This document shows positions 1 through 14,819 of a stretch of 27,718 bases of DNA, in pieces; position 1 is the first letter of the stretch, and the number at the start of each line of letters is the position of its first letter. The translations under genes and the position numbers were made by a program. The stretch is from a virus. Below the pieces are notes generated by a model. The model searched no databases and was not told where the DNA came from. It saw only the letters and a program-made list of their open reading frames with translations. The stretch lies in the UHGV virus genome UHGV-0268347. One strand, given 5' to 3'.

Positions 1-141
1 ATGCGGGCAACGGTGTTTAATTATATCGAATGTGATTACAATCGGTGGCGGCGGCACAGTTGGTGTGGCGGCCTCAGTCCGGAACAATTTGAAAACCAGA
101 ACCTCGCTTAAGCCTGTGTCCATATTACGTGGGTAGGATCA
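1..141 (+). mobile_element. insF: IS3 right end: 3' end of transposase orfB (InsF) plus terminal inverted repeat, cut by the window edge
   Basis: Translation of 1..111 is [36 protein letters not shown], which I recognise as the C-terminus of IS3 InsF; ...cacgtgggtaggatca ending at 141 matches the IS3 terminal repeat as I recall it. No search run. Confidence 0.8.
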
Positions 142-181
142 ATAATCGTATCTGTTGTAGCCACAGTCACGTCACATATAA

Positions 182-420
182 GAACTTGCTGGCCTAAGAA
201 GAATGCGCGCTGATTTTGAAGATAAAATCAGCGTTACAACGCCCGAAAGACCCGGGCTAAAAAATTTCTCAGGACATTATCGGCAGGTGACACTCTGGTG
301 GTCTGGAAACTGGATCGACTGAGGCGCAGTATGCGGCATCTTGTCGTGCTGGTGGAGGAACTGCGCGAAAGAGGCATCAACTTTTGCAATCTGACGGATT
401 CAATTGATACACAGTATCTT
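182..420 (+). pseudogene. Serine recombinase (Pin/Gin/Hin-type DNA invertase) remnant, N- and C-terminally truncated with an internal frameshift
   Basis: One frame gives ...FEDKISVTTPERPGLK, the next gives KFLRTLSAGDTLVVWKLDRLRRSMRHLVVLVEELRERGINFCNLTDSIDT; together these resemble residues about 30-95 of Pin-family invertases. The frame switches near the A-run at 255-262. The catalytic-serine N-terminus is absent and the sequence diverges after SIDT. Confidence 0.6.
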
Positions 421-545
421 GTTAACACCAACACATGGCTGCAGGAGGGATATTATCGGTACCCGATTTCAGGATACAGCGCCTGATTAGACTAAAGAGG
501 GGCTATATTGTAGAGTTTGCTAAATTTTTTTATAGGGTTAAGCAA

Positions 546-1616
546 ATGACAGTCAGGAACTACACTAATTTAAATTTAGATCGGACAACTATTGAGGCTA
601 CGTCTAGGGCATTTATTGAAAATAAAAACTATTCCGTCCATTCAATTGGACCAATGCCTGGTGCAAGAGCAGGACTTCGGGTTGTGTTTGCTAAACCAGG
701 AGAAGCTTTGGCAACTGTTAACATTTTCTATAATAACGGAGGGACGTCTACAGTCCAGTATCAAACAGGAGCTAATCATAATCTTGGAAAAGAGTTGGCT
801 GATGATCTCTATGAAACCATCAATCCTGCAGAATTTGAACAGGTAAATATGGTGTTACAAGGGTTCGTTGAAGCGAACGTTTTATCTGTACTTCAGCTCT
901 CAGCAGAGCAGCCACATATACAATTTTACGAATACTTACGGAACACTCATACAACGGTGTGGAAAATTCATTCGCCAGAATTTCAGGATGAGTTGACAGT
1001 TAGTCTGCATCACAGAAATGGAACACTACAAATACAAGGGCGTCCATTGTCATGTTATAGAGTGTTTATATTCAACTTGTCAGAGCTACTCGATTTACAA
1101 GGACTGGAAAAAGTTCTCATTCGTCAGGACGATGGCAAAGCGTATATAGTTCAGAAAGAAGTTGCTCGCTCACATCTAGAGTGTGAAATGGGGGATGCGT
1201 ACCCACTATTGCATAAGAATGTTGAAAAATTGCTCGTTTCTGGGCTGTGTGTTAAACTCGCCGCCCCCGATTTACCCGATTACTGTATGTTGTTGTATCC
1301 TGAATTACGTTCAGTTGAGGGAGTACTTAAATCAACAATGTACCGATATGGCATGCCAATCACGCAGGATGGTTTCGGGCGTTATTTTGATAAAATTGGG
1401 AGTGAATTTATTCTGAAACAACAATTTGGATGCAATTTATCGTCAGCTAAGGTTAAGACCATTAATGATGCCTATACTTTCTTTAACAGAGAACGTCATG
1501 GCCTGTTTCATATGGAGATAGTTGTCGACACAAGCCGTATGGTTTCTGACATGGCACGACTGATGACTAAGGCCAGACAGGCATGGGGAATTATTAAGGA
1601 TTTGTATATTGTTTGA
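546..1616 (+). CDS. rnlA: RNase LS toxin RnlA
   Basis: 356-aa product from ATG 546 (MTVRNYTNLNLDRTTIEA...GLCVKLAAPDLPDYCMLLYPELR...AWGIIKDLYIV); length and sequence closely resemble E. coli RnlA as I recall it. The ORF track's 435 start is an upstream in-frame extension. Confidence 0.8.
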   Translation: MTVRNYTNLNLDRTTIEATSRAFIENKNYSVHSIGPMPGARAGLRVVFAKPGEALATVNIFYNNGGTSTVQYQTGANHNLGKELADDLYETINPAEFEQVNMVLQGFVEANVLSVLQLSAEQPHIQFYEYLRNTHTTVWKIHSPEFQDELTVSLHHRNGTLQIQGRPLSCYRVFIFNLSELLDLQGLEKVLIRQDDGKAYIVQKEVARSHLECEMGDAYPLLHKNVEKLLVSGLCVKLAAPDLPDYCMLLYPELRSVEGVLKSTMYRYGMPITQDGFGRYFDKIGSEFILKQQFGCNLSSAKVKTINDAYTFFNRERHGLFHMEIVVDTSRMVSDMARLMTKARQAWGIIKDLYIV

Positions 1617-1971
1617 AATAACAGGTGTTAACGTCTCAGGGGCTCTCATTGCCGTCGTTATGGCGACTGGCTACGAGAACCCCTTGACTTCAGTTCACGA
1701 AATCGAGAAGAGGCTTTCTGTTATACTGGGCAATTCACAGGCTACAGGTGAGGTTTTGTTTGACCTTTTGTGTTCTAATGGTCCAGAGTGGAATCGCTTT
1801 GTTTCGCTGGAAATAAGGTGTGGCAGTATTTTGCTGGATACTGCCAAAATTGTGGATGAGCAAGAAATTCCAGCGCAGATCTTGAGACATCAGAGAGATG
1901 TATTACGTAACCACCCTGAGTACGTAGAAGACTCTGTGTTAACACCAGATGATGTTCTTTGTATTCTCTAG
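1609..1971 (+). CDS. rnlB: RnlB antitoxin
   Basis: 120-aa product MFEITGVNVSGALIAVVMATGYENPL...NHPEYVEDSVLTPDDV, resembling RnlB; overlaps the rnlA stop by 8 nt (operon arrangement); apparent TTG start. Confidence 0.75.
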   Translation: MFEITGVNVSGALIAVVMATGYENPLTSVHEIEKRLSVILGNSQATGEVLFDLLCSNGPEWNRFVSLEIRCGSILLDTAKIVDEQEIPAQILRHQRDVLRNHPEYVEDSVLTPDDVLCIL

Positions 1972-2108
1972 CTAAGAAATTTTGCACGAGAGGATTTTAA
2001 CCTCCTCCCCGACAGACATGACAGTGCCCAAATGTCTTAAGAACGTATGTACTTGAAATGGACATTGCTAATACCACTGGGTATTGATTAATTTGGGGCT
2101 GGTAAGCA

Positions 2109-2378
2109 TTACAAACCAATAATCTGGAATAGCGCGGTTGCTGCTGCAGACAATGCTGCAAATGAATTGTACTTAGATTGAAGCCGCGCAGTGGCGAAGA
2201 AATCATGGAGATTCACGTTAAGTTCGGGATCTTCATACGTAACCATGACAATTTTTTTGCCTAACTCAACTTTTGCTGTAGCAGATTTAATCCATAAAAT
2301 TGCAGATAAGACGCCAAAAGTTAATGACATCACATGATGATCTTTAATCCAACACATCACAAAAAGTAGATTTTCCAT
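2109..2378 (-). CDS. Hypothetical small hydrophobic protein (89 aa)
   Basis: ORF with a strong RBS (aggaaggtga) 4 nt upstream of ATG on the minus strand; no family recognised; could be a gene fragment. Confidence 0.25.
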   Translation of the reverse strand: MENLLFVMCWIKDHHVMSLTFGVLSAILWIKSATAKVELGKKIVMVTYEDPELNVNLHDFFATARLQSKYNSFAALSAAATALFQIIGL

Positions 2379-2521
2379 TAATCACCTTCCTGATAAAGAA
2401 CAGTGGCATTACAAATAAACAAGAAATCTCCTGTCGCAGGTACCTTGTCAATTTAACACCCACATCAATAAAGGCTGTTGTTCCGTTTGTGGCAGCTGAT
2501 GTATAGACATTTTTGCAGATG

Positions 2522-2548
2522 AAACGAAAAAGCCCGCAGATGCGGGCT
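2522..2548 (-). terminator. Rho-independent terminator (minus strand)
   Basis: Stem agcccgca/tgcgggct with 2-nt loop at 2531-2548, followed on the minus strand by a T-run (plus-strand gaaacgaaaaa). Confidence 0.6.
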
Positions 2549-2678
2549 TTCATGTCACTTGGGAGCCGCGGCTCCTTTGCGTATCCTTTTTTGTATCCTC
2601 ACCGTCTGGTCGGTGTCCTGCTGAGACTGCTAACTTCCTGTTTTTATTGGTGTTGTCCTTACACCGTCCAATCATGAT

Positions 2679-2723
2679 TGGTGGAGCTGGCGGGAGTTGA
2701 ACCCGCGTCCGAAATTCCTACAT
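2679..2723 (-). other. ssrA: Prophage attachment-site core: 45-nt duplicate of the 3' end of tmRNA gene ssrA
   Basis: Reverse complement reads ATGTAGGAATTTCGGACGCGGGTTCAACTCCCGCCAGCTCCACCA, identical to the ssrA 3' end as I recall it; the match stops abruptly at 2724, so this is a partial att copy, not the gene. Confidence 0.8.
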
Positions 2724-2808: not shown

Positions 2809-3855
2809 TTAATGCTCTGTCGCCAATCTGTCGCCATTGTAGGTCAACGAAGGTTGAGCCTTCCCTTTGTTTGTTACAATTTCATCAAAGATAGCTGGAT
2901 TATTATCTTTCAGTAATCTTGCTAGTATAATGATTTGCCCAGACGAGCCATCATCCTTGAATGAAAGGAAATTATCGGTAATATCAAGAATATCAATGGT
3001 AAATTTGAAGTAGGTTTCAATTGTATCGCCAAGTTCAATGCTGGACATGAAGTTAGTAATCATTTCATATCCATCAAAGTATAAAGTTGCATGTTCATTT
3101 AACTCCATGGGAGTTAGGCAAAGCATTCGATTAAGTTCGGATAAGTGTTTTTCTATTGAATGAAGAGATTGCATTTGACGGATTAAAACTTCGTCAAACT
3201 GAGAGCCACGATTAGATGAATTTATCTTCTCTAGGTTTTTTAGTATATCAACCCAGTGATTATTTACTTCACGTATGTATTCTTTATCTGTATTTTTAGG
3301 CCGTCCCTTCTCTGGTGAGCTATTTATGAAAATATATCTATATAGATGTATTGGGTAGTTAATTTTATAACTTATCTCTTTAGTACCATAATGACGTTCG
3401 CGTTTAATGGTTTTGTTAGGTAAATTGGTGAAATAATCAGTAACGAACTTTAGATGGCTATAGTAGCTATCAGATAGATTCTTTTGCTTGGTTTCCTCAA
3501 TTTGTCGGTTTGTTTGAACTGTGCGGTGTATGTTTGCTACGACAGCAACAAATGGTATGGACAAAGAAAGTAAGGCGATAGGAAGCTTGCTAATTGCAAT
3601 GAAATTATTAAAGCCCTCACTATCAAATTGAGGGGAATGTCCAAGCCAGGAAAATATACCAAAGTATATCGCTGAAAATACAGGAATCCTAAGTGATTGT
3701 TTAAATAAGTATTGACTTGTTAATGGCCTTTCATCCATGTTAAAGCCTTTTTTTGATACGCATAGATATAATTCAAGGCATATATATATAAAATATATTA
3801 TGATAAGTAAGTACGATATCCATGGGTATTGTTGGATATAGTTATTAACAAGCAC
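2809..3855 (-). CDS. Hypothetical multi-pass membrane protein (348 aa), AT-rich integrase-adjacent moron
   Basis: ORF between int and att; N-terminus has about three hydrophobic helices (WISYLLIIIYFIYICLELYL, IPVFSAIYFGIFSWLG, LPIALLSLSIPFVAVVANI), then a roughly 230-aa soluble domain; visibly AT-rich. GTG start at 3855 overlaps the int stop, preceded by GGAG; the next in-frame Met is residue 40. Confidence 0.55.
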   Translation of the reverse strand: MLVNNYIQQYPWISYLLIIIYFIYICLELYLCVSKKGFNMDERPLTSQYLFKQSLRIPVFSAIYFGIFSWLGHSPQFDSEGFNNFIAISKLPIALLSLSIPFVAVVANIHRTVQTNRQIEETKQKNLSDSYYSHLKFVTDYFTNLPNKTIKRERHYGTKEISYKINYPIHLYRYIFINSSPEKGRPKNTDKEYIREVNNHWVDILKNLEKINSSNRGSQFDEVLIRQMQSLHSIEKHLSELNRMLCLTPMELNEHATLYFDGYEMITNFMSSIELGDTIETYFKFTIDILDITDNFLSFKDDGSSGQIIILARLLKDNNPAIFDEIVTNKGKAQPSLTYNGDRLATEH

Positions 3856-4885
3856 TTTCTAATTTTCTCCATCCAAGGTTAGCAAGAGGATTTTTGGTTA
3901 CAGCATCTTCCAGATGGTCGGGAGCGAAGTGGGCGTAAATCATTGTCATTTTTATATCGACATGGCCCAGAATATCGCGCAGCACCAGTATGTTTCCGCC
4001 ATTCATCATAAAGTGACTTGCAAATGTATGTCGTAATACGTGTGTGCATTGCCCTTCTGGTAGCTCGATACCAGCTCGTTTAACCGCACGTTCAAAAGCT
4101 TTCCTACAAGGTGTAAATAATTTTCCCCTATTCTTAGGCAGTTCTTCATATAAATCCTTTGAAATAGGCACTGTTCGGTTTTTCTTTCCTTTAGTCTTGG
4201 TATAAGTGATACGGTATTTTGATACCTGATGACTCTGTAAGTTTTCGGCTTCGCTCCAGCGTGCGCCGGTGGCCAAGCATATTTTTGCAATCATCAGCAG
4301 ACTGGGGCTTTGAGAATCAGCACAGGCATCCAGCAGACGTTTAATTTCTTCCGGGGTCAGGAACGCCAATTCACCCTCAGCAATTTTAAATGTTGGCAGC
4401 CCAGCAAGCGGGTTGGGGGCTGACCAGTGGCCCAGCTTTTTCAGTGTACCAAAAACAGATGATAGGTTGCGCTGTTCAAGATTTACCGTGCGGGGCTTAA
4501 CGGGCGACATAAGCGTGCCATCTTCATTTCGTACTTCACCTTTTAACCGTGCTTCGCGGTATTTCGTAAACTCACCAGCTGTCAGTTCTGAGGCGATGGG
4601 ATCGCCTAGACCATTACAGATAATTCTAAGTTTCGCCATGAGGCGCTTGGGGTCTGCGAGTGTTTGACCATACAGGGAATACCACAGCTCAATTAATTCT
4701 GATAGATGTCGCCGATCTTCCTTTTCCCCTAGCCATGGTTTTTTGTTCACTTCTTCCATTGTGAAGCTTTCAAACGCAATGGCTTCGCCTTTGGTAGCAA
4801 ATTGCTTACGCACGCGCTTACCATTGCGTCCATTGGGATAGCACTCACACAACCATTTTCCGTTCGGCTGTTTTCTGATGGTCAT
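3845..4885 (-). CDS. int: Tyrosine integrase (P2/186-type)
   Basis: 346 aa; C-terminal catalytic region with HVLRHTFASHF and MIYAHF (R..H-x-x-R..Y pattern); positioned next to att and the repressor as in P2/186. Confidence 0.93.
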   Translation of the reverse strand: MTIRKQPNGKWLCECYPNGRNGKRVRKQFATKGEAIAFESFTMEEVNKKPWLGEKEDRRHLSELIELWYSLYGQTLADPKRLMAKLRIICNGLGDPIASELTAGEFTKYREARLKGEVRNEDGTLMSPVKPRTVNLEQRNLSSVFGTLKKLGHWSAPNPLAGLPTFKIAEGELAFLTPEEIKRLLDACADSQSPSLLMIAKICLATGARWSEAENLQSHQVSKYRITYTKTKGKKNRTVPISKDLYEELPKNRGKLFTPCRKAFERAVKRAGIELPEGQCTHVLRHTFASHFMMNGGNILVLRDILGHVDIKMTMIYAHFAPDHLEDAVTKNPLANLGWRKLESAC

Positions 4886-4888
4886 AAG

Positions 4889-5527
4889 TTAGAGGTTCTT
4901 GATTACTTTGACTGCACGTCCTACGACTTCCACATCATCTACAGAACATTCAAATGAAGTGTCATCTTGGTTAACTACTATTTTGTTTCCGGGTATGCGC
5001 GCAATTTTGACGATGCTTTTAACTCCGTCCATATCGACTAACCAGAAGCCATTACTGACTTGTTTAACAGACGTATCCACTACAAAGCTATCATTAGCTG
5101 TTTTAACAAATAAAGCGTTGGATGAGTCACCATCGAGCAGGCTGCTATCAAGAAGAATTTCATCACTTGGCTGCAGTTCGCCGTTCTTCAGTTCAACACG
5201 TTTGATGCTAGGAGCAACGATCTTAGAAAGTGGTCTTACAGTGACGGAAGGTTCATTTTTGAGATTTATTTCTTCGTTCTCACACGCATACATATCTCCT
5301 TGACCAGTAGCCAGCCATAGAAGGGAAGCTCCTGTTTCAAGGGCACATTGGATTACCCATTCGGCAGGAAAGCTATCCCTTAAGTATCTGTTAGCCATAG
5401 TGCTTTTTGATACTTCCAGATGTTCGCAGAGCTGCTGTCGTGAGCTGAAGTTGTAAGCCTTAATAAGCCTATTAATCGCATCGCGCCCACCACTATCATT
5501 CCCCGCCTTGATTAAACTCATAATCAA
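4889..5527 (-). CDS. cI: CI-type lysogeny repressor
   Basis: 212 aa, divergent or convergent with the apl-cII operon and immediately upstream of int; N-terminal region resembles the phage CI-repressor HTH domain (186-like). Confidence 0.75.
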   Translation of the reverse strand: MIMSLIKAGNDSGGRDAINRLIKAYNFSSRQQLCEHLEVSKSTMANRYLRDSFPAEWVIQCALETGASLLWLATGQGDMYACENEEINLKNEPSVTVRPLSKIVAPSIKRVELKNGELQPSDEILLDSSLLDGDSSNALFVKTANDSFVVDTSVKQVSNGFWLVDMDGVKSIVKIARIPGNKIVVNQDDTSFECSVDDVEVVGRAVKVIKNL

Positions 5528-11797: not shown

Positions 11798-12838
11798 TTG
11801 ATTAAAGTTGTTGATCTTTTTTGCGGAGCAGGTGGCTTAACTCATGGTTTGCAACGAGCAGGGTTGAATGTGGTTGCAGGCTATGATATTGATGCTACAT
11901 GTCGGTATGCTTATGAAAAAAATAACAATGCTTTATTTGTGCAAAAAAGCGTCACTGAACTTGATGAAGGGGAAATAAGTAAGCATTTTAAGGATGCATC
12001 AATTAAAGTTTTAGCTGGATGCGCTCCATGCCAGCCATTTTCTAGTTATACAAATACTGATAAATCAGTAAAAAAAATAAAAGACCATCGATGGTCTTTA
12101 TTGTATAGCTTTGCTAAGCAAATTCAATTATGTGCTCCAGATATAGTCACAATGGAGAATGTTCCAAGAGTTATTAACCACAAAGTTTTTAAAGATTTTG
12201 TGAAGACTTTAAAGTCTGAAGGGTATTTCGTTTGGTATGATACTGTATTTTGTCCTGATTATGGAATGGCCCAAAGCCGATCTAGATTAGTGTTATTAGC
12301 GTCCAAGTTTGGCGAGATAAAACTAATCCCGCCAACACATGATAAAAATAACTATAACACTGTACGTAGCGTTATTGGTGGATTGCCTCCTATTGATGCT
12401 GGATCGAGTGATGAGAAAGACAGACTTCATTATGCTGCATCTTTATCACCATTAAATATGGAGCGAATAAAACATTCTAAGCCAGGTGGAACATGGAAAG
12501 ATTGGCCTGAGTACTTACGGGCGTCATGCCACACCAAAGAATCAGGATCTTCTTACACTGCAGTTTATGGAAGAATGAGCTGGGATAAACTTGGCTCTAC
12601 AATTACAACACAATGTATAGGTTTTGGTAATGGTCGATTTGGTCATCCAGAACAAAATAGAGCTATTAGCCTAAGAGAGGCAGCTTTGCTTCAATCTTTT
12701 CCTCTAACTTATGAATTTTGGCCAGCTGAAGTAAAAGTTGAACTCAGGAATGTTGCACGACTGATTGGTAATGCTGTGCCGGTGAGGCTCGGTGAAGTTG
12801 TTGGGCAAAGTATTATTGAACACCTTAAAAGAAAATAA
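11798..12838 (+). CDS. DNA (cytosine-5) methyltransferase
   Basis: 346 aa with canonical C5-MTase motifs: I DLFCGAGG, IV GCAPCQPFS (catalytic Cys), VI ENV, VIII QSRSRLVLL, X GNAVPV. TTG start with RBS agggagga and extended -10 (tgcTACAAT) upstream; visibly AT-rich. Confidence 0.92.
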   Translation: MIKVVDLFCGAGGLTHGLQRAGLNVVAGYDIDATCRYAYEKNNNALFVQKSVTELDEGEISKHFKDASIKVLAGCAPCQPFSSYTNTDKSVKKIKDHRWSLLYSFAKQIQLCAPDIVTMENVPRVINHKVFKDFVKTLKSEGYFVWYDTVFCPDYGMAQSRSRLVLLASKFGEIKLIPPTHDKNNYNTVRSVIGGLPPIDAGSSDEKDRLHYAASLSPLNMERIKHSKPGGTWKDWPEYLRASCHTKESGSSYTAVYGRMSWDKLGSTITTQCIGFGNGRFGHPEQNRAISLREAALLQSFPLTYEFWPAEVKVELRNVARLIGNAVPVRLGEVVGQSIIEHLKRK

Positions 12839-12863
12839 AAAGGGCGAATCGCCCTTTTTTTTA
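12839..12863. terminator. Bidirectional rho-independent terminator shared by the convergent gene pair
   Basis: Stem agggcg-aat-cgccct flanked by an A-run on one side and a T-run on the other (aaaagggcgaatcgcccttttttttag). Confidence 0.75.
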
Positions 12864-14819
12864 GATACCATCAACAATTTTCATTATTCGTGCAGCATCA
12901 TCTTTTTTGCTCTGATACTCAGAGTATGCTTGTTTGGATTGTATTATAAGATCGCTATATGTTAATACCTTTGCATTTATAGATTGTAGCTGTGAGCGAA
13001 TATAATTATCTCCACTTCCGTCATAACCTTTGCCGACAAGAAAAACTACATCTATCGGTGGTATTTTTCCGGCAGGGCAACTATTTGGGTTGTTTCTAAA
13101 CCACTGCTCTGTGGCAACAACATATTTCCTTCCTTGACCTACTAATGCCAAAATATCAGGATATACATTTGGTCTTTTCATTTCAATGATGACGTGTTTA
13201 CCTGAAACGGTTTTGAAGGCTATATCAATTCTTGCACCACTTTCAGCGTCAGGGTTAACCTCTTTCAATTCCTTAGTCAGGGTTTGTTCCATAACTGTAG
13301 AACCAGTAACCCTCTCCCATGATGGGTCTAACAGCCATAAGTGGTCATAAAGATATTTTTGTACAGCCTTCTCTAACTCATTGTCATCGGTGATTTTTTG
13401 AAATTTCTCAATAACTTTCAATCGCTGTGATGTAATCTCATAAAAAAGGCTTGCCTCAATATCATTTACAGAAGCAAAAACCTCCCTAAAATGTTCTGAG
13501 TTTAAATCGCTAATTTTATCTAAAGCCTCAAGGTTATCTTTTATTCTTAATCTTTCAAAAGCAAGAACTGTATTTTTTAATACGGTTTTTTTTGCAATTT
13601 TCTGGTTTTCTTCATCTCCAGAAAATCTAAATGTGTTAATTTTGCCTAGTAATTTTTCGGCGCTGTTTCTTTCATGTTTTGACATGGAATCAAGCCAATC
13701 ACTTACAGCAGGTGAAGTTTTTTTAACCTCGCTAAGACCTTTTGCTCTTCGCCATTCATCCCATTCTTTATCTATTTTTTGTAATGTCCGTTCTAAGAAA
13801 CCCTTAATCACAGGATAGCGTGGATCATTCTGCTGTAATTTCTGTCGGGATGAGGTTGCCATGTCAGGTTTTTCATTTTCATCTAAAAAATCTGCGACAA
13901 GTTCCCCTACTAAATAATTTGTAAAAACCTTTGCGCTTCCGAATTCAAGCAATATATCTTCTTCAAATACCCGCCCATTTGATATTACGGTTATCGTGTT
14001 GTTAGATATTTCAGGGTCTTTTTTAAGTTGAGATGGTTTCTCAACACTTCCTACATAACCAGTAATGAAATAATCTACGCCTTCAAAAGATAATTTGTTA
14101 TCTAGAAGGCTTTTTTTAGAAAGATTTTTGCAAGATTTTACTCTTGCGGGATCTGAACTACCAAACTCCCATAAAAATTCAAGATCTGAAAGGAAGTCTC
14201 TATCTTCAGTAGTTATCTCAGTGTCATTGATTTTAACTATAAAATCATGACCAGGACCAATTATGCTAAACCGTCTGGCAAGTCTTTTTCTTAGATAGGT
14301 CTGAGTTCTATCAATGGATTTTTTTAAATCCATAAGAACTATTGTCGTCCCTATACTAAAGTCTTTCGGAACATTAATAATATTTGCAACATATTGTTTA
14401 CTGCTTTTTATACAGCGTTGCAATTCATCAACGTCAACTTCAAATCCCTGAGGCGTTTGGCCAATTTTGTGAGAAAATACTTGGATTTTGTTAGCTAATG
14501 AAAACATTGCTAATTTACCAATGCCTTTTCTACCCATGACTTGTCGTTGTAATCCATCACTTTTATACCTTCCACTTTCTCTTCTGGCATATCCAACTTT
14601 TAGGAATTTATTAATGATGTCATCTTTTGACATTCCATGTCCATCATCTTTAATTATTACCTTTTCATTTTCAACATCTAGAGTGATGTCTACATTTTTA
14701 GCATCCGCATCCCAAGCATTTGAGATTATTTCAGTTAGAACAGCTGGTGTGTTAGAGTAAAGACTCATACCTAAATGATTCAATACATTCAGGTCTATTT
14801 TAATTTCGAAATCGGACAT
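12861..14819 (-). CDS. GHKL-family ATPase fused to a C-terminal PD-(D/E)xK nuclease domain (652 aa); candidate restriction/defence effector
   Basis: N-terminus has Bergerat-fold motifs: N-box EIISNAWDADAKN, G1 IKDDGHGMS, G2 GRKGIGKLAMFS. C-terminus has GARIDIAF...GKHVIIEMKRP (acidic D532 and E546-x-K548 after hydrophobic strands). RBS aaggaaagga; visibly AT-rich. Confidence 0.85.
   Translation of the reverse strand: MSDFEIKIDLNVLNHLGMSLYSNTPAVLTEIISNAWDADAKNVDITLDVENEKVIIKDDGHGMSKDDIINKFLKVGYARRESGRYKSDGLQRQVMGRKGIGKLAMFSLANKIQVFSHKIGQTPQGFEVDVDELQRCIKSSKQYVANIINVPKDFSIGTTIVLMDLKKSIDRTQTYLRKRLARRFSIIGPGHDFIVKINDTEITTEDRDFLSDLEFLWEFGSSDPARVKSCKNLSKKSLLDNKLSFEGVDYFITGYVGSVEKPSQLKKDPEISNNTITVISNGRVFEEDILLEFGSAKVFTNYLVGELVADFLDENEKPDMATSSRQKLQQNDPRYPVIKGFLERTLQKIDKEWDEWRRAKGLSEVKKTSPAVSDWLDSMSKHERNSAEKLLGKINTFRFSGDEENQKIAKKTVLKNTVLAFERLRIKDNLEALDKISDLNSEHFREVFASVNDIEASLFYEITSQRLKVIEKFQKITDDNELEKAVQKYLYDHLWLLDPSWERVTGSTVMEQTLTKELKEVNPDAESGARIDIAFKTVSGKHVIIEMKRPNVYPDILALVGQGRKYVVATEQWFRNNPNSCPAGKIPPIDVVFLVGKGYDGSGDNYIRSQLQSINAKVLTYSDLIIQSKQAYSEYQSKKDDAARIMKIVDGI

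What the first reader, a model, noticed from the sequence alone, without database searches (positions are those of the whole stretch)
546..1971. RnlA-RnlB toxin-antitoxin (RNase LS) immediately outside the prophage
RnlA/RnlB is a known anti-phage toxin-antitoxin (RNase LS acts against T4 dmd mutants). Here it sits between a decayed IS3/invertase junction and the prophage att site, giving a second defence locus within 10 kb of the cargo hotspot.
Basis: established knowledge. Interest (0 to 1): 0.45.

Follow-up and report, generated by a model that had tools for sequence, protein, structure and literature searches.

The report
Intact RnlA-RnlB toxin-antitoxin pair
The two genes are an intact, already-annotated variant of the well-known E. 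coli RnlA/RnlB toxin-antitoxin anti-phage module, left over from an older decayed prophage beside the tmRNA gene, so the finding is correct but ordinary.

Summary
Confirmed, and ordinary. Window 546-1616 (+) encodes a 356-aa RnlA: 71% identical to K-12 RnlA, E 8e-167 to PDB 6y2p/4i8o, all three RnlA Pfam domains present. Window 1609-1971 (+) encodes a 120-aa RnlB: about 68% identical, E 4e-51 to 6y2p_C. The four residues shown to be essential in K-12 RnlA (R255, E258, R318, H323) are all kept. Gene order, the TTG start of rnlB and the 8-nt overlap match K-12.

The same DNA at 99% identity or more occurs in 73 of 5426 complete E. coli genomes, where PGAP already names it "RnlA family toxin / RnlB family antitoxin".

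The IS3 end is at 1-140 and an invertase pseudogene at 215-411. A 45-nt ssrA 3' end at 2679-2723 is the att core of a Fels-2-like P2-family prophage, so rnlAB lies about 700 bp outside that prophage.

One refinement: the block 141-2706 (invertase remnant, rnlAB, an 89-aa ORF, fossil ssrA att) recurs at the tail-fibre end of lambdoid prophages at three or more chromosomal sites. Here rnlAB is therefore surviving cargo of an older ssrA-integrated lambdoid prophage cut down at an IS3 junction.

RNase activity and anti-phage function are inferred by homology, not tested.

The parts
1..140 (+). Right end of an IS3 element (last 111 nt of the transposase gene plus the terminal inverted repeat). It marks the left break of the relic island.
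   Evidence: This stretch is 100% identical to strain AHM8C212RI, where PGAP annotates an IS3 transposase ending at window position 111. Genomes without the IS3 match the window only from 141. The IS3 terminal repeat is readable at 121-141.
215..411 (+). Pseudogene fragment of a serine recombinase (tail-fibre invertase, Pin-like).
   Evidence: PGAP annotates 'recombinase family protein, frameshifted, incomplete' at this place in the matching genomes. ORF 298-486 hits Pfam Resolvase at 1.7e-8. In other genomes it follows a tail-fibre assembly gene.
499..545 (+). 5' leader/upstream region of rnlA, homologous to the region upstream of K-12 rnlA. It is the presumed promoter-proximal region.
   Evidence: The blastn alignment of the window to K-12 runs from 499 to 1955 at 72.9% identity, starting 49 nt upstream of K-12 rnlA. 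A promoter function is inferred; the consensus promoter scan found no more sites than shuffles.
546..1616 (+). rnlA: HEPN endoribonuclease toxin (RNase LS family), 356 aa.
   Evidence: Searches give 71.4% identity to K-12 RnlA, all three domains, and R255/E258/R317/H322 plus V206 and D245 conserved. dN/dS against K-12 is 0.107.
1609..1971 (+). rnlB: cognate antitoxin, 120 aa, TTG start, overlapping the end of rnlA by 8 nt.
   Evidence: Searches give PF15933 at 3.5e-24, 6y2p_C at E 4e-51, and 83 identical positions out of 124 alignment columns against K-12 RnlB. K-12 has the same TTG start and the same 8-nt overlap. dN/dS is 0.211.
2109..2378 (-). 89-aa ORF of unknown function, convergent with rnlB. 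It is the third gene of the travelling cassette and is probably dispensable.
   Evidence: PGAP calls it a hypothetical protein, WP_000429347.1. It hits phrog_14357 'unknown function' at 4e-33. It is next to rnlB in all 8 places shown for it. In L009, L010 and L013 the match to the window stops at 2218, and L009 and L013 carry IS1 genes just beyond.
2523..2678 (-). Sequence downstream of the ssrA 3' end, carried as the att flank of the older lambdoid prophage.
   Evidence: In ETEC4088 a second copy (93.7% identical over window 2523-2711) lies at the far, integrase end of the lambdoid prophage next to ypjA. The block travels with rnlAB to non-ssrA sites.
2679..2723 (-). 3'-terminal 45 nt of ssrA (tmRNA gene). 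It is the att core shared by the chromosome and the Fels-2-like prophage, and forms the prophage/island junction.
   Evidence: It is an exact match to the ssrA 3' end in ETEC4088. There is an Rfam tmRNA partial hit at 2679-2769, E 3e-11. Phage and prophage records match the window from 2678 onward.

Best explanation
This is a complete RnlA-RnlB type II toxin-antitoxin module of the RNase LS family. By homology, RnlA is a three-domain HEPN endoribonuclease held inactive by direct binding of RnlB to its canonical HEPN dimer. When a lytic phage shuts off host gene expression, the labile RnlB decays. Free RnlA then cleaves mRNA and aborts the infection, unless the phage brings a Dmd-like inhibitor. 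The locus does not belong to the adjacent P2-family prophage. It is the last intact cargo of an older lambdoid prophage that had integrated at ssrA and now ends at an IS3 junction. A Fels-2-like phage later used the same ssrA att site, which put rnlAB about 700 bp from its junction. Shown here: identity, intactness, gene architecture, genomic position and history. Inferred: RNase activity, neutralisation by RnlB, the trigger, and the anti-phage phenotype.
For: Homology is full length and strong: E 8e-167 and 4e-51 to the solved K-12 RnlA:RnlB complex, with Pfam domains complete. R255, E258, R317 (K-12 R318) and H322 (K-12 H323) are kept. Alanine substitution of each abolishes K-12 RnlA activity and toxicity (PMC8266594). 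The same four positions are invariant in 28 family members spanning 25-86% identity to the window protein. V206 and D245, the positions mutated in that paper (V206R, D245R), are also kept. The operon architecture is identical to K-12: toxin first, TTG start for rnlB, 8-nt overlap, and homology extending 47 nt upstream. Purifying selection has acted since the split from the K-12 allele, with dN/dS 0.107 for rnlA and 0.211 for rnlB. There are no stops or frameshifts in any of five DNA alleles from 21 loci. On position, strains lacking the P2-like prophage have pin'-rnlA-rnlB-ORF89-ssrA-smpB, and phage homology begins at 2678. On origin, the cassette 141-2706 follows J-lom-stf-tfa in lambdoid prophages at ssrA, near the pao/xdhC genes and near icd, and it carries 26-28 nt of the ssrA 3' end even at the non-ssrA sites.
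Against: No experiment exists for this allele. It differs from K-12 RnlA at 29% of positions and from K-12 RnlB at about 32%. RnlB is 3 residues shorter with a different C-terminal tail. No promoter could be identified above chance. PADLOC-DB 2.0 gave no hit for either protein, although that shows only that no model in that library matched. Neither the phage collection nor the plasmid collection holds this DNA, so carriage by a lambdoid phage rests on prophage contexts only.
Confidence: 0.88

Rival explanations
1. The pair is functional but persists mainly as an addiction (anti-deletion) module, not as a phage defence. Any deletion that removes it frees stable RnlA from labile RnlB and kills the cell. 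That would explain why it is the only intact part of the decayed prophage.
For: The IS3 junction lies about 400 bp upstream of rnlA, and everything else of the lambdoid prophage is gone. The genes are intact and under purifying selection. Both observations fit this reading equally well.
Against: K-12 RnlAB has a demonstrated anti-phage phenotype against T4 dmd mutants (PMC8266594 introduction). In most places read the cassette sits in apparently complete lambdoid prophage tail regions, not in relics. The two roles are not mutually exclusive.
Confidence: 0.3
2. The genes are intact but silent or inactive relics. The native promoter was lost with the upstream prophage DNA, or the allele has lost toxicity.
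For: The upstream DNA is an invertase pseudogene and an IS3 end, and no promoter stands out.
Against: The upstream 141-545 is the same in every genome carrying the cassette, including those with the full prophage tail region, so nothing specific was lost here. The 47 nt upstream of rnlA are homologous to K-12. All catalytic and family-invariant residues are kept. No disrupted copies were seen among the 21 loci.
Confidence: 0.07
3. rnlAB is cargo of the adjacent P2-family prophage, lying inside its borders.
For: It is close to the integrase end, and P2-like phages do carry defence cargo. This prophage has a restriction-modification pair in its hotspot between the replication gene (P2 A-like) and the portal gene (P2 Q-like).
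Against: The att core is at 2679-2723. Phage and prophage records match only from 2678 onward. The same prophage sits beside unrelated DNA (ypjA, a P4-like satellite) in other strains. rnlAB sits beside an intact ssrA in strains without the prophage.
Confidence: 0.01

Closest known systems
E. coli K-12 RnlA-RnlB (RNase LS; rnlA b2630 / rnlB b2631, in cryptic prophage CP4-57; PDB 4I8O, 6Y2P)
   Same: It has the same three-domain toxin and the same antitoxin fold family. Identity is 71% for RnlA and about 68% for RnlB. The catalytic residues, gene order, TTG start of rnlB and 8-nt overlap are the same. The upstream 47 nt are homologous, and both loci lie in the island downstream of ssrA.
   Different: It is a distinct allele: 72.9% DNA identity, not found by megablast, and named only 'RnlA family' by PGAP. 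The neighbours differ. K-12 has yfjM/abpAB upstream and yfjP downstream inside CP4-57. Here the neighbours are an invertase remnant and an 89-aa ORF at a lambdoid prophage end. It is rarer, in 73 against 363 of 5426 complete genomes. It is untested experimentally.
LsoA-LsoB of plasmid pOSAK1 (E. coli O157:H7; PDB 5HY3, LsoA with T4 Dmd)
   Same: It belongs to the same RnlA/LsoA HEPN RNase family, a toxin-first type II TA system that is inhibited by T4 Dmd.
   Different: It is only distantly related (E 7.5e-14 against 8e-167 for RnlA). LsoAB is plasmid-borne, whereas this cassette was found only on chromosomes.
Accessory ('moron') genes at the tail-fibre/att end of lambdoid prophages
   Same: The cassette sits after J-lom-stf-tfa and before the att site in several lambdoid prophages.
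   Different: In this window the phage itself is gone and only the cassette remains.

Membership tests
RnlA toxin (RNase LS, HEPN_RnaseLS branch) | Three-domain architecture: N-terminal TBP-like domain, repeated TBP-like domain, and C-terminal HEPN (Dmd-binding) domain. | tested here: met
   PF19417 covers residues 6-86, PF15935 covers 98-183, and PF19034/PF18869 cover 203-336, all above the gathering scores. The end-to-end alignment to 6y2p_A covers 1-356 against 1-357.
RnlA toxin (RNase LS, HEPN_RnaseLS branch) | HEPN Rx4-6H motif plus the conserved Arg and Glu (K-12 R255, E258, R318, H323). | tested here: met
   R255, E258, R317 and H322 are present. They are invariant in 28 family members. 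Their essentiality is shown in PMC8266594.
RnlA toxin (RNase LS, HEPN_RnaseLS branch) | Endoribonuclease activity and growth inhibition when expressed alone. | not testable with these tools
   This needs expression and RNA-cleavage assays.
RnlB antitoxin | RnlB_antitoxin domain, and homology to the K-12 RnlB seen bound to the RnlA HEPN dimer. | tested here: met
   PF15933 scores 3.5e-24 and covers model positions 2-93 of 94. The match to 6y2p_C is E 4e-51 over residues 1-119.
RnlAB type II TA operon | Toxin gene first, antitoxin immediately downstream and overlapping. | tested here: met
   The 8-nt overlap and the TTG start of rnlB occur both here and in K-12 MG1655.
RnlAB type II TA operon | RnlB neutralises RnlA and is proteolytically labile. 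The system restricts T4 dmd mutants. | not testable with these tools
   This is known for the K-12 pair only. It needs co-expression, stability and plating assays.
Cargo of the adjacent P2-family (Fels-2-like) prophage | The genes lie between the prophage att sites and co-occur with the phage. | tested here: not met
   The att core is at 2679-2723 and phage homology starts at 2678. The prophage is found without rnlAB, and rnlAB is found without the prophage.
Lambdoid-prophage accessory cassette | It recurs at the same position in lambdoid prophages, independent of the chromosomal site. | tested here: met
   Window 141-2706 recurs at 99% identity or more after the tail-fibre genes at ssrA, near pao/xdhC and near icd. 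In ETEC4088 it is bounded by two ssrA-3' copies.

The most novel reading that the evidence does not exclude
This allele, about 30% diverged from K-12, may be an insulated toxin-antitoxin pair with its own specificity. It might not be neutralised by K-12 RnlB and might be less sensitive to T4 Dmd, so it could restrict wild-type T-even phages. The 2.6-kb block (invertase remnant, rnlAB, ORF89, fossil ssrA att) would then be a defence cassette shuffled by recombination among lambdoid prophages with different integration sites.
Probability: 0.12. Interest if true: 0.4.

Novelty: already known. Interest (0 to 1): 0.15.

Why it matters
It matters little beyond correct annotation. The strain carries an apparently functional RnlAB abortive-infection module next to a prophage that itself carries a restriction-modification pair, which is typical of the clustering of defence genes at the ssrA integration hotspot. 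The modest added value lies in the history. The module is the sole survivor of an older lambdoid prophage. The same cassette, with a fossil ssrA att fragment, travels among lambdoid prophages at several chromosomal sites. This illustrates how toxin-antitoxin defence genes outlive the phages that delivered them.

Tried and rejected
- PADLOC-DB 2.0 gave no hit for RnlA or RnlB, and NCBIfam gave none either. I treated both as library gaps, because Pfam and PDB homology are unambiguous.
- The consensus promoter and terminator scan of 100-2800 found no more promoter-like sites than shuffles. No promoter is claimed.
- ARAGORN found no tRNA or tmRNA in the window. The ssrA piece is only a 45-nt 3' fragment, found by comparison with annotated genomes and by Rfam at a relaxed threshold.
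- No second copy of the att core lies in the window, so the other prophage end is beyond 27718.
- blastn against the phage and plasmid collections found nothing for rnlAB.
- The idea that rnlAB is P2-prophage cargo was rejected.
- The long 393-aa reading of rnlA from 435 was rejected in favour of 546.

Full report
**The observation**

One is 546-1616 (ATG start, 356 aa). The other is 1609-1971 (TTG start, 120 aa).

The first protein carries all the Pfam domains of RNase LS: RnlA_toxin_N, RnlA_toxin, and RnlA-toxin_DBD/HEPN_RnaseLS. The second carries RnlB_antitoxin. All scores are above the curated cut-offs.

Against PDB chain sequences:
- The toxin aligns end to end with K-12 RnlA (6y2p_A, 4i8o_A) at E 8e-167.
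- The antitoxin aligns with K-12 RnlB (6y2p_C) at E 4e-51.
- The plasmid homologue LsoA (5hy3) is far more distant, at E 7.5e-14.

Global identity is 71.4% for RnlA (NTD 69%, NRD 76%, HEPN 69%) and about 68% for RnlB.

The mechanical ORF list shows a 393-aa version starting at 435, and PGAP uses it in some genomes. K-12 RnlA aligns from residue 1 of the 546 start, and DNA homology with K-12 ends 47 nt upstream of 546. I therefore take 546 as the homologous start.

**Intactness**

Garcia-Rodriguez et al. (PMC8266594) showed that alanine substitution of R255, E258, R318 or H323 in K-12 RnlA abolishes RNase activity and toxicity. The equivalent residues here are R255, E258, R317 and H322, and all are present.

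- In an alignment of 28 family members spanning 25-86% identity to the window protein, these four positions are among only 18 invariant columns.
- V206 and D245, the positions mutated in that paper (V206R, D245R), are also kept.
- The operon layout matches K-12 MG1655: toxin first, rnlB starting with TTG, and an 8-nt overlap.
- Between this allele and the K-12 allele, dN/dS is 0.107 for rnlA and 0.211 for rnlB.
- None of the five DNA alleles recovered from 21 loci has a stop or frameshift.

No inactivating change was found.

**How common it is**

The 1426-bp segment occurs at 99% identity or more in 73 of 5426 complete E. coli genomes. It is always chromosomal, and PGAP annotates it as [quoted passage not shown]. 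The K-12 allele occurs in 363 of 5426.

The exact RnlA protein is listed in 1378 index blocks of the assembly collection. The wider family is large and continuous across Proteobacteria, and it is consistently named RnlA family. Neither the phage nor the plasmid collection has this DNA.

**Context on the right: the P2-family prophage**

Strains with the same left-hand DNA but no prophage show this order: recombinase pseudogene, rnlA, rnlB, 89-aa ORF, ssrA, smpB. The match to the window ends at 2723, 45 nt into the 3' end of ssrA.

- The 45-mer at 2679-2723 is an exact ssrA 3' end, and Rfam detects it as a tmRNA fragment.
- Phage and prophage records (Fels-2, Kp4865-2, RE2010, Cartapus and others) match the window from 2678 onward.
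- Beyond the junction come an integrase (3845-4885, -), a CI repressor (4889-5527, -), and ORFs in the order expected for P2 replication and head genes.

So 2679-2723 is the att core, and rnlAB ends 707 nt outside it. In other strains the same prophage abuts unrelated DNA, either ypjA or a P4-like satellite, so rnlAB is not its cargo.

The prophage's low-GC hotspot, between the replication gene (P2 A-like) and the portal gene (P2 Q-like), holds an m5C methyltransferase (11798-12838). It also holds a BbrUII/HgiDII-family restriction enzyme (12861-14819).

**Context on the left and the origin of the module**

Positions 1-140 are the right end of IS3, and 215-411 is a fragment of a serine recombinase. 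In strain ETEC4088 the same invertase fragment follows the J, lom, tail-fibre and tail-fibre-assembly genes of a complete-looking lambdoid prophage. That prophage's integrase lies about 40 kb away next to ypjA.

The prophage is bracketed by the real ssrA 3' end on one side. On the other side is a second copy, 93.7% identical, of window 2523-2711, which is the ssrA-downstream sequence plus 33 nt of ssrA. In ETEC4088, rnlAB and the 89-aa ORF therefore lie inside a lambdoid prophage, between the tail-fibre genes and its att site.

Look-ups by exact protein show the same arrangement at other chromosomal sites, near the pao/xdhC genes and near icd. There the DNA match to the window still extends to 2704-2706. 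The cassette thus drags 26-28 nt of the ssrA 3' end with it as a fossil att.

In this window, and in AHM8C212RI (identical over 1-2723), the DNA left of position 141 is IS3 instead of the tail-fibre genes. In AHM8C212RI the chromosomal ygaQ/glaH/gab genes follow the IS3. I infer an IS3-associated deletion that removed the rest of the older prophage.

The most economical history has four steps:
1. A lambdoid phage carrying rnlAB integrated at ssrA.
2. Most of that prophage was lost, leaving its remnant ending at the IS3 junction.
3. The TA pair survived.
4. A Fels-2-like phage later integrated at the same ssrA site.

**Mechanism**

By homology with the K-12 system, RnlA is a HEPN endoribonuclease that is active as a canonical HEPN dimer. 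RnlB binds that dimer and blocks the active-site cleft.

From established knowledge of K-12 RnlAB (Koga et al. 2011; Otsuka and Yonesaki 2012; cited from memory), RnlB is short-lived. T4-induced shut-off of host expression therefore frees RnlA, which degrades late phage mRNA. T4 counters this with Dmd.

None of this was tested for the present allele, and no promoter could be pinned down.

An addiction or anti-deletion role would equally explain why the pair outlived its prophage. The two roles are compatible.

**Novelty and score**

The finding is correct and is already annotated under the right family name in RefSeq. It belongs to one of the best-studied TA defence modules. I rate it "already known", with interest 0.15.

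The most novel reading still open is that this diverged allele is an insulated pair with altered sensitivity to Dmd. Dmd inhibits both RnlA and the far more distant LsoA, which argues against that reading. I give it a probability of about 0.12.

**What led nowhere**

- PADLOC and NCBIfam gave no hits for the pair.
- ARAGORN saw no tmRNA.
- The att core occurs only once in the window.
- As a side item, I modelled the 348-aa membrane-anchored ORF between the integrase and att (2809-3855, -) with good confidence (pLDDT 83). It has no informative structural or family match.

Noticed in passing
[not shown]
   Followed up: partly
window 11798-14819: A low-GC island (0.33-0.39 against about 0.55) lies in the prophage hotspot between the replication gene (P2 A-like) and the portal gene (P2 Q-like). 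It holds an m5C DNA methyltransferase (11798-12838, +) and a convergent BbrUII/HgiDII-family restriction enzyme with a GHKL ATPase domain (12861-14819, -; NF050001, E 6e-226).
   Followed up: partly
window 141-2706; loci L006, L014, L020, L021: The whole block (invertase remnant, rnlAB, 89-aa ORF, ssrA-downstream sequence, first 26-28 nt of the ssrA 3' end) recurs at 99% identity or more in lambdoid prophages that are not at ssrA (near pao/xdhC, near icd). A fossil ssrA att therefore travels with the cassette, which implies recombinational shuffling among lambdoid prophages with different integration modules.
   Followed up: partly
window 2109-2378 (-): An 89-aa ORF (WP_000429347.1, phrog_14357, unknown function) is convergent with rnlB and is next to rnlB in all 8 places shown for it. 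In L009, L010 and L013 the match to the window stops at 2218, inside this ORF, and L009 and L013 carry IS1 genes just beyond. It is therefore probably dispensable for the TA pair.
   Followed up: partly
window 1-130 vs K-12 locus L022 12345-12514: The IS3 end in the window has 80-83% matches to a short stretch between abpA and yfjM in K-12 CP4-57, just upstream of K-12 rnlA. This suggests an IS3-family remnant near the K-12 rnlAB as well.
   Followed up: no
loci L003, L004 (other E. coli strains): The same Fels-2-like prophage sits at ssrA beside different older elements: ypjA in CFSAN051542, and a P4-like satellite carrying a large ATP-binding protein in HS4. This shows tandem, serial use of the ssrA att site.
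   Followed up: no
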